Shown here piece after piece: positions 3,543 to 4,414 of a DNA stretch of 4,468 nucleotides (positions are counted from its first letter, which is position 1; each line of letters begins with the position of its first letter). The translations under genes were made by a program, and so were the position numbers. Source of the stretch: Escherichia coli (GTDB lineage: Bacteria > Pseudomonadota > Gammaproteobacteria > Enterobacterales > Enterobacteriaceae); the NCBI RefSeq assembly GCF_003334785.1, contig NZ_QOWV01000046.1, one strand, 5' to 3'. The notes beneath the pieces were generated by a model. That model searched no databases, had not been told where the DNA came from, and was given only the letters and a program-made list of their open reading frames with translations.

Positions 3543-4414
3543 TCAGAAGAAAATCCAGTTCCATACCGCGCGGGCAACAGAGACCACCGAGTCACGGACG
3601 GCGCGCAGAACCGTGCGTGCAACAGAGGCAATGCAGACGCTCTCCGCCGTGTCAAATATCCGGTCCACCGCACCGGTAAACTGTTCACGGGCCTGAGACC
3701 GGACAGACTCCGTGCGCAGCTCGTCCTGCAGGCGGGTCATCAGGGGACTGGCGGCATGGTCGGGAAGTGCTGTCATGAGCGCACTGACCAGCGTATCCAG
3801 TTCCCAGCCGGTGCGGGCCGATACGGCAACAACCCGATGTACGGGCCGGAACAGACGGAATACCGCCTCCGTTTTTTCGCGAATGTTCTGTGCCTCTGCG
3901 GGAGAAGGCTGAATACTGGCCATATCCCATTCATGGCAGGGCTCCGTTTTATCGGCCTGCATCACCACAAACAGTACCCGCTGATGTCCCCGGTGCAGGA
4001 TGTGTCGCCAGAAATACTCATCCACAGACAGGGCACGGTCATCGGCTTTAATCAGCCACAGTACCAGGTCCAGTTCGAGCAGAATGTCACGGTACAGGGC
4101 TTCATACTCTGCATCCCTGTCCCGGCTCTCGCCCACCCCGGGCAGGTCAGTGATAACCATGCTGTGACCATGGCCATTCAGACGGAAGCGCTGCACTTCC
4201 CGGGTGCCGGCGTGAACATCACTGACCGGGGTGACCTCCCCCTGAAACAGCGCATTACAGAGTGAGGATTTACGGGCCCGCTTTTACCCATAATGCCAGG
4301 CACGGGTTCGTGACTGGTGAGTTTGCGCAGATGTTCCAGGTTGTGACGGGAAAGTGAGTAAGGCAGGGAGGAGAGCGGTTTTTCAATTGCCTCAATGGCA
4401 TCAGACGGATTCAT
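3543..4414 (-). pseudogene. YeeP/YfjP/YkfA-family GTPase of CP4-type islands, disrupted by a frameshift inside the Walker A motif
   Basis: N-terminal frame from ATG 4414-4412 reads MNPSDAIEAIEKPLSSLPYSLSRHNLEHLRKLTSHEPVPGIMGKSG, then runs out of frame to a stop at 4178. The other frame continues KSSLCNALFQGEVTPVSDVHAGTREVQRFRLNGHGHSMVITDLPGVGESRD...LFVVMQADK... to the stop at 3543. The break maps to about 4270-4280, where GKSG-PVN replaces the expected GKSGAGKSS, consistent with a 1-nt deletion. Combined length of about 290 codons fits the family. Confidence 0.7.

What the first reader, a model, noticed from the sequence alone, without database searches (positions are those of the whole stretch)
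4260..4295. Inactivating lesion sits exactly in the P-loop of the YeeP-like GTPase
Seen in sequence: the N-terminal frame reads GIMGKSGPVN and the continuing frame reads KSSLCNALFQGEVTPV. Restoring one nucleotide near the GGGCCCG run at 4273-4280 would give the expected GKSGAGKSS Walker A motif. Established knowledge, from memory: yeeP in E. coli K-12 is annotated as a pseudogene. Inference: a recurrent or ancestral loss of this GTPase, or a homopolymer-associated sequencing error in a G/C run.
Basis: partly seen in the sequence, partly recalled or inferred. Interest (0 to 1): 0.35.

Follow-up and report, generated by a model that had tools for sequence, protein, structure and literature searches.

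The report
Inherited frameshift kills island GTPase gene
A GTPase gene on an E. coli genomic island is broken by a real, inherited frameshift in its nucleotide-binding loop; about 4% of complete E. coli genomes carry the same broken allele and it is already annotated as a pseudogene, so the finding is ordinary.

Summary
On the minus strand, window 4414..3543 is an 872-nt YeeP/YfjP-family GTPase gene. Its frame breaks inside the Walker A loop at CGGGCCCG (window 4273-4280).

One detail is wrong. Against the nearest intact allele (AGC GGG GCC GGT AAA, GKSGAGKSS), the window differs by a 1-bp deletion and a G-to-C substitution. Adding one base back gives GKSGPGKSS or GKSGARKSS, not GKSGAGKSS.

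The allele is not a sequencing error:
- The identical 80-nt allele is in 211 of the 20,395 records (5,426 complete E. coli genomes), including O103:H2 12009.
- NCBI's PGAP pipeline flags the gene as frameshifted in the three such records inspected.
- A linked SNP 3.2 kb away marks nearly the same set (224 records), so it is one inherited haplotype.

K-12 yeeP is dead by a different lesion, a 5' truncation. Other strains add IS insertions, so loss recurs across the family by different routes.

The window's strain also carries a 2.77-kb deletion that destroys the neighbouring dynamin/RdcB/patatin operon.

Rare in-frame derivatives of the lesion exist in a few assemblies. Controls suggest background homopolymer insertions rather than a switch.

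Verdict: an ordinary, already annotated pseudogene. Low interest.

The parts
3543..4414 (-). YeeP/YfjP-family GTPase pseudogene, 872 nt. The intact orthologue is 873 nt and 290 aa (WP_001069815.1).
   Evidence: It is 99.6-99.9% identical to 'GTPase family protein' genes. PGAP flags the gene 'frameshifted' in JKHS016, EF7-18-58 and O103:H2 12009, and calls it intact in JX21CE33. Pfam MMR_HSR1 hit at E 4.9e-14 on the intact protein.
4273..4280 (-). Lesion site CGGGCCCG, covering codons 46-48 of Walker A. Intact alleles have GGGGCCGG, so the window has one base fewer and one G-to-C change.
   Evidence: Alignment to intact and lesion-bearing loci.
4266..4288 (-). Remains of the Walker A / G1 motif: 23 nt instead of 24. 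G43-K-S-G46 is in the start frame. K49-S50 is in the shifted frame.
   Evidence: Translations. Alignment of residues 37-56 to the G1 motif of Der and Era structures.
4178..4180 (-). Premature TGA stop of the N-terminal frame. The product is 78 aa: 46 native residues and 32 out-of-frame residues.
   Evidence: ORF list and translation.
3543..4196 (-). Residual downstream ORF of 217 codons from a GTG. It holds the G3 motif (DLPG) and the C-terminal part but no P-loop.
   Evidence: Gene callers report this ORF or a 205-aa ATG version on 1000 or more public contigs, the count cap.
4444..4458 (-). Terminator-like hairpin plus T-run about 30 nt upstream of the GTPase start codon. It probably ends the upstream 383-aa gene.
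   Evidence: Pattern scan only.
2402..3325 (-). 5' third of the neighbouring dynamin-family (CrfC-like) gene, truncated by a deletion.
   Evidence: PGAP notes 'missing C-terminus' in JKHS016. The intact gene is 798 aa in JX21CE33. NCBIfam CrfC hit at 1.2e-166, below the curated cut-off.
2401..2402 (.). Junction of a 2,773-bp deletion with 2 nt of microhomology. The deletion removes the dynamin 3' two-thirds, all of the RdcB-family gene and the patatin 5' part.
   Evidence: BLAST of the window against the intact locus: query 1-2068 matches reference 1182-3250, and query 2067-3194 matches reference 6024-7151. Only JKHS016 and AST198 align to the whole window as one piece.
1735..2403 (-). C-terminal remnant of the patatin-like phospholipase gene.
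   Evidence: PGAP notes 'missing N-terminus' in JKHS016. The intact gene is 356 aa in JX21CE33.

Best explanation
The feature is a genuine, vertically inherited pseudogene allele of a YeeP/YfjP-family small GTPase. The gene sits on a CP4-44-like integrative island of E. coli.

Relative to the intact allele, codons 47-48 (GCC GGT) have lost one G and carry one G-to-C change. Translation therefore leaves the frame after G46. It never reads the Walker A lysine and serine (K49, S50) and stops after 78 codons.

Neither the 78-aa peptide nor the downstream P-loop-less ORF should bind nucleotide (inferred from the loss of the Walker A residues), so the GTPase is non-functional.

The two changes arose once, in unresolved order, on one island haplotype. 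That haplotype is now in about 4% of complete E. coli genomes. In the window's own lineage the island decayed further, with a 2.77-kb deletion through the adjacent dynamin/RdcB/patatin operon.

Shown: the lesion, its exact nature, its population spread and its linkage. Inferred: loss of function, single origin, and neutrality of the later changes.
For: - Intact orthologues more than 99% identical encode an uninterrupted 290-aa protein with GKSGAGKSS.
- The P-loop is conserved in the 49%-identical paralogue YfjP (GKTGAGKSS). It aligns to G1 of the Der and Era structures.
- The exact 80-nt lesion allele is in 211 of the 20,395 records (5,426 complete genomes). Hosts and laboratories are diverse.
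- PGAP marks the gene 'frameshifted' in JKHS016, EF7-18-58 and O103:H2 12009.
- The exact intact 81-nt allele is in 686 records.
- A SNP 3.2 kb downstream (reference position 4629 G>A) is in every lesion-clade sequence that covers the site and in none of the three intact ones. It is found in 224 records. This indicates one clade.
- Further hits on the same dead gene: an IS66 insertion at about codon 29 in DSM 103246, and the non-synonymous changes I25N and G167S in the window.
- The neighbouring operon is deleted in the window.
Against: - The window's own reads cannot be inspected.
- The order of the two changes is unknown. Deletion-only alleles (GGGCCGGT, GGGGCCGT) have no full-length exact match in complete genomes.
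- Both substitution-only alleles exist, but they are rare and scattered over sub-haplotypes. That looks derived rather than ancestral.
- Loss of function is inferred from the motif, not measured.
Confidence: 0.9

Rival explanations
1. The frameshift is a sequencing or assembly error in a G/C run of this particular window, and the real gene is intact.
For: The site is G/C-rich with short runs (GGG, CCC). Raw reads are not available here.
Against: - The identical compound allele (deletion plus substitution) is in 211 records.
- It is tied to a linked SNP 3.2 kb away.
- The window matches JKHS016 over all 4,468 bases at 100.0% (rounded; about two differences, estimated from the bit score), including the lesion.
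- A homopolymer error would not also create a G-to-C substitution.
Confidence: 0.02
2. The site is a switch. Either programmed ribosomal frameshifting or a phase-variable tract turns the GTPase on and off, and the rare in-frame alleles are the 'on' state.
For: - In-frame derivatives one insertion away from the lesion allele exist: GGGCCCGGT in 4 assemblies, GGGGCCCGT in 2, and GGAGCCCGT in 2 near-identical records.
- They lie on different sub-haplotypes of the lesion clade, which suggests several independent events.
- GKSGPGKSS keeps the GxxxxGKS consensus.
Against: - There is no X XXY YYZ slippery heptamer.
- The runs are only 3 nt, far below typical contingency tracts.
- Any slip product would lack G48.
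- In-frame alleles are under 0.5% of the clade in complete genomes: 1 full-length exact match against 211.
- Control look-ups found frame-restoring insertions at downstream T3 and G5 runs too. Those scramble K49/S50 and cannot restore function. Background indels or assembly artefacts therefore explain such variants.
- GKSGARKSS loses the invariant glycine.
Confidence: 0.05
3. The same lesion arose repeatedly and independently in different lineages, as a mutational hotspot, rather than once.
For: The substitution creates a perfect palindrome (CGGGCCCG). The family as a whole is inactivated repeatedly, by the K-12 truncation and by IS insertions.
Against: - The lesion needs two specific changes.
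- No deletion-only intermediate has a full-length exact match.
- Lesion and linked SNP occur in near-equal numbers of records (211 against 224).
- The other inactivations in the family are different events.
Confidence: 0.03

Closest known systems
E. coli K-12 yeeP (b1999), the CP4-44 cryptic-prophage GTPase pseudogene
   Same: The same gene family. The window shares about 96% nucleotide identity with it over the part K-12 retains. Both are non-functional remnants lacking a P-loop in frame. yeeP is treated as a dispensable integration site in strain engineering (PMC9923381).
   Different: K-12 lost the 5' end of the gene (about 320 nt by my estimate), including the P-loop. PGAP notes 'missing N-terminus' and 552 nt remain. 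It sits upstream of agn43. The window keeps the full length with an internal frameshift and sits upstream of a dynamin/RdcB/patatin operon. These are independent events.
E. coli K-12 YfjP (b2632, CP4-57), an intact paralogue
   Same: 49% identity over the full length (E 8e-94). It has the same P-loop (GKTGAGKSS), DLPG G3 motif and C-terminal region, and the same kind of island context upstream of a DUF932 gene.
   Different: YfjP is intact. The window's gene is frameshifted. Neither has an experimentally known function (literature search).
Era / Der / MnmE (TRAFAC-class MMR_HSR1 GTPases)
   Same: The G domain is similar: Pfam MMR_HSR1 at 4.9e-14, PDB Der and Era chains at 1e-6 to 1e-7. G1 and G3 motifs align.
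   Different: All NCBIfam hits are far below the curated cut-offs, for example Era at 48.6 bits against 237. Where those proteins have the G4 motif NKxD, this family has MQAD or SQSD. It is not an orthologue of any of them.

Membership tests
YeeP/YfjP/YkfA-family island GTPase | Full-length sequence similarity to YfjP and YeeP | tested here: met
   BLASTP against K-12 YfjP: 49% identity, E 8e-94. About 96% nucleotide identity to the K-12 yeeP remnant. PGAP names are 'GTPase family protein' and 'YfjP family GTPase'.
YeeP/YfjP/YkfA-family island GTPase | Intact Walker A (GK[ST]GAGKS) in frame | tested here: not met
   The window reads GKSGP followed by a frameshift. Intact orthologues and YfjP have the motif. 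The window's gene is therefore a pseudogene member, not a functional one.
YeeP/YfjP/YkfA-family island GTPase | Context in a CP4-like island with DUF932, antirestriction and RadC/JAB genes downstream | tested here: met
   The JKHS016 locus, near-identical to the window, carries DUF932, antirestriction and JAB gene remnants downstream, and AlpA-like HTH and Gp2-family genes upstream.
Frameshift pseudogene | A near-identical intact orthologue exists, and the lesion causes a premature stop | tested here: met
   Intact alleles at more than 99% identity. Stop after 78 codons.
Frameshift pseudogene | The lesion is real, not a read or assembly error | tested here: met
   Met for the allele: 211 records carry it, and it is linked to a SNP found in 224 records. 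Not testable for the window's own reads.
Programmed frameshift / phase-variable contingency locus | Slippery heptamer, or a long simple-sequence tract, at the shift site | tested here: not met
   The site is AAAAGCGGGCCCGTAAAT. The longest G or C run is 3, and there is no X XXY YYZ motif in the zero frame.
Programmed frameshift / phase-variable contingency locus | Both on and off length variants common within lineages | tested here: inconclusive
   In-frame variants exist but are rare: one full-length exact match against 211 lesion records, and 3-4 contigs each in the 15-billion-protein collection. Frame-restoring insertions that do not restore function also occur.
LeoA / LeoBC (Eleos, 'Dynamins') defence GTPases | Full-length match to the PADLOC LeoA or LeoBC models | tested here: not met
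   Only a partial G-domain match: LeoBC at 7.3e-8 covering profile positions 83-162 of 601, and LeoA at 1.6e-3.

The most novel reading that the evidence does not exclude
The ancient P-loop frameshift is being repaired repeatedly by independent +1 insertions at or next to the lesion, giving GKSGPGKSS and GKSGARKSS alleles on several sub-haplotypes. That would imply intermittent selection to regain the island GTPase, or a locally hypermutable palindromic site acting as a slow on/off switch.
Probability: 0.08. Interest if true: 0.35.

Novelty: already known. Interest (0 to 1): 0.1.

Why it matters
It matters little. It documents one more decayed gene on a decaying E. coli island, and NCBI's PGAP pipeline already flags it.

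Three modest uses remain:
- The compound lesion plus its linked SNP is a clean marker for one island haplotype, found in about 4% of complete genomes.
- YeeP-family GTPases are lost repeatedly by different routes: frameshift here, 5' truncation in K-12, IS insertions elsewhere. This suggests the gene is dispensable to the host under most conditions.
- In most lesion-bearing genomes listed, the adjacent dynamin/RdcB/patatin operon stays intact. If that operon is functional, it does not appear to need this GTPase.

Tried and rejected
- **Rfam scan** of the whole window at E up to 1: no RNA family, and no isrC-like sRNA downstream of the GTPase.
- **Literature search** for yeeP, yfjP and ykfA: no functional study. 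I found only use as an integration site and listings in pathogenicity-island tables.
- **NCBIfam and PADLOC** scans of the intact GTPase and its four neighbours: no hit above the curated cut-offs and no defence-system assignment.
- **Search for evolutionary intermediates.** Deletion-only alleles are absent. Substitution-only alleles are present but rare and scattered. I read them as derivatives of the lesion allele, not ancestors.
- **Recombination between lesion and intact alleles** as the source of the in-frame variants. Rejected, because the downstream marker 4629A is retained in FCI1, PTMY01, JBHZNL01 and CDDKXI01.
- **Quasi-palindrome template switching** as a single-event origin of the compound lesion. 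I considered it, but a 4-bp stem with no loop is not a plausible hairpin. It could not be tested.
- **Programmed frameshifting.** Rejected on sequence grounds.
- **Retrieval problems.** NZ_CP078587.1 could not be fetched from the collection. The stored copy, L009, is largely masked by N, so the GGAGCCCG variant's context could not be examined.

Full report
**What is at the coordinates.** The gene is on the minus strand, window 4414 (ATG) to 3543 (stop), and is 872 nt long.
- From the ATG the frame reads MNPSDAIEAIEKPLSSLPYSLSRHNLEHLRKLTSHEPVPGIMGKSGPVNPHSVMRCFRGRS... and stops after 78 codons at window 4180-4178.
- The next frame reads ...KSSLCNALFQGEVTPVSDVHAGTREVQRFRLNGHGHSMVITDLPGVGE... through to the normal C-terminus ...AVWNWIFF.
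- The break falls at CGGGCCCG, window 4273-4280, a perfect 8-bp palindrome.

**Exact nature of the lesion.** A megablast of the gene against 5,426 complete E. coli genomes finds relatives in 4,540 of them.
- The closest full-length intact allele examined (strain JX21CE33, WP_001069815.1, 290 aa) reads AAA AGC GGG GCC GGT AAA TCC, giving K-S-G-A-G-K-S.
- The window and strain JKHS016 read AAA AGC GGG CCC GTA AAT CC.
- GGGGCCGG has become GGGCCCG: one base lost and one G changed to C. This can be described in two equivalent ways:
  - GCC>CCC in codon 47 plus loss of a G in codon 48.
  - Loss of a G from the GGGG run plus GGT>CGT in codon 48.
- Restoring a single base therefore does not regenerate GKSGAGKSS. 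It gives GKSGPGKSS or GKSGARKSS.
- Walker A is G43-K-S-G-A-G-K49-S50. It aligns to the G1 motif of Der and Era crystal structures. It is conserved as GKTGAGKSS in the 49%-identical K-12 paralogue YfjP.

**Real allele or error.** The allele is real.
- The exact 80-nt lesion allele occurs at 100% identity and full length in 211 records.
- These come from human, cattle, pig, poultry, dog, mouse and environmental isolates sequenced by many groups. They include O103:H2 strain 12009.
- PGAP annotates the gene 'frameshifted' in the three lesion-bearing records I inspected: JKHS016, EF7-18-58 and O103:H2 12009.
- The exact intact 81-nt allele occurs in 686 records.
- A SNP 3.2 kb downstream, in the 3' end of the dynamin gene (reference position 4629 G>A), is present in every lesion-clade sequence I examined that covers the site. 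It is absent from the three intact ones.
- An exact 81-nt query carrying that SNP matches 224 records, almost the same number as the lesion.
- The lesion therefore marks a single inherited island haplotype. A homopolymer sequencing artefact is excluded for the allele. Only the window's own reads remain unchecked.

**Order of the two changes.** This is unresolved.
- Deletion-only alleles (GGGCCGGT and GGGGCCGT) have no full-length exact match in the complete genomes.
- The substitution-only allele GGGCCCGGT (GKSGPGKSS) has one full-length exact match, strain FCI1, annotated as intact. GGGGCCCGT has none.
- In the 15-billion-protein collection both in-frame proteins exist, on 3 and 4 contigs. 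The C-terminal ORF called from lesion alleles is on 1000 or more contigs, the count cap.
- A third in-frame form, GGAGCCCGT, occurs in CP078586/7.
- These variants carry the lesion-linked marker 4629A where it is covered. They sit on different sub-haplotypes of the lesion clade (markers 324A, 1202A, 2063T, 2225G).
- For example, CDDKXI01 (GGGGCCCGT) and CAMGTU01 (GGGCCCGGT) share 324A, 1202A and 2063T.
- They cannot all be ancestors. The simplest reading is several independent +1 insertions into the lesion allele, or assembly and polishing artefacts.

**Is that a switch or selection?** I ran a control by looking up frame-restoring +1 insertions at other short runs.
- Insertions in the downstream T3 run and G5 run restore the frame but scramble K49/S50. 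Each exists on one contig.
- Insertions in CCC, in AAA, in TCC and in the C4 run are absent.
- A background of frame-restoring homopolymer insertions therefore exists. The enrichment near the P-loop (8 assemblies against 2) is weak and ascertainment-biased, because only frame-restoring variants can be looked up this way.
- There is no slippery heptamer, and no run is longer than 3 nt at the site.
- I rate the switch or reactivation reading at about 5-8%.

**Comparison with K-12.** K-12 yeeP is indeed a pseudogene, but through a different event.
- Only the 3' 552 nt survive ('missing N-terminus'), directly upstream of agn43. K-12 derivatives match only bases 374-929 of my 969-nt query.
- Other strains carry IS66, IS21 or IS3 elements in or beside this gene.
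- In DSM 103246, an ISCro1 element splits the already frameshifted gene at about codon 29.
- Loss is therefore recurrent across the family by different mechanisms, while this particular lesion arose once.

**What the intact gene is.** The intact protein has 290 aa and an Era/Der/MnmE-like G domain.
- Pfam MMR_HSR1 scores 4.9e-14, and PDB Der and Era chains score about 1e-6.
- All NCBIfam equivalog scores are far below cut-off. The PADLOC LeoBC match is only partial.
- The G3 motif is DLPG. In place of the G4 motif NKxD the family has MQAD (SQSD in YfjP).
- No functional study turned up. yeeP is used as a neutral integration site (PMC9923381). A YeeP/YfjP homologue is listed next to Ag43 in the Shigella SRL island (PMC6980539).

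**Context in the window.** In intact relatives the gene order is:
1. a 383-aa hypothetical gene
2. the GTPase
3. a dynamin-family CrfC-like gene (798 aa)
4. an RdcB (YjcZ)-family gene
5. a patatin-like phospholipase
6. two hypothetical genes
7. a DUF932 gene

- Among the lesion-bearing genomes listed, most keep the dynamin gene and the start of the RdcB gene without interruption. The two I inspected (EF7-18-58 and O103:H2 12009) have an intact dynamin gene.
- The window instead carries a 2,773-bp deletion with 2-nt microhomology. Its junction is at window 2401-2402.
- The deletion joins the first third of the dynamin gene, out of frame, to the last 669 nt of the patatin gene.
- Only JKHS016 and AST198 align to the whole window as one piece.
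- The window also has I25N (window 4341, private) and G167S (window 3917, shared with JKHS016) in the dead gene.

**Verdict.** This is an ordinary, already annotated frameshift pseudogene. 'Ancestral loss' is right for this haplotype. 'Sequencing error' is rejected. The K-12 pseudogene is an independent event.

Noticed in passing
window 1735-3325, junction at 2401-2402: A 2,773-bp deletion with 2-nt microhomology fuses the 5' third of a dynamin-family (CrfC-like) gene, out of frame, to the 3' end of a patatin-like phospholipase gene. It removes the whole RdcB/YjcZ-family gene. Among the 5,426 genomes, only JKHS016 and AST198 align to the whole window as one piece.
   Followed up: yes
window 4273-4280; loci L003, L009-L015: Rare in-frame derivatives of the lesion allele (GGGCCCGGT, GGGGCCCGT, GGAGCCCGT) occur on different sub-haplotypes of the lesion clade. 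Frame-restoring insertions at the downstream T3 and G5 runs also exist on one contig each. Whether these are real revertants or polishing artefacts is unresolved.
   Followed up: partly
L017 1436-5014 (DSM 103246); other IS-bearing hits: IS66 (ISCro1), IS21 (ISEc12, IS100) and IS3 elements are inserted in or next to this GTPase gene in several strains. In DSM 103246 the IS splits the already frameshifted gene at about codon 29.
   Followed up: partly
window 3950-3961 (minus strand, codons about 152-155); L016 7711-8574: The YeeP/YfjP family has MQAD or SQSD where Era and Der have the G4 guanine-specificity motif NKxD. Nucleotide specificity of the intact proteins may therefore not be strictly GTP.
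   Followed up: no
L002 6145-10510 (intact relatives of window 1735-3325): The island carries a three-gene module: a CrfC/RdcA-like dynamin, an RdcB (YjcZ)-family protein and a patatin-like phospholipase. It is a paralogue of the chromosomal RdcA/RdcB pair with an added lipase. It has no PADLOC assignment and its function is unknown.
   Followed up: no
window 4444-4458 (minus strand): A terminator-like hairpin with a T-run lies about 30 nt upstream of the GTPase start codon. No sigma-70-like promoter was detected between it and the ATG, so it is unclear how the intact gene is transcribed.
   Followed up: no
window 4341 and 3917: There are two non-synonymous changes in the dead gene relative to the common lesion haplotype: I25N, private to the window, and G167S, shared with JKHS016. 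This is consistent with relaxed constraint, but there are too few changes to test it.
   Followed up: partly
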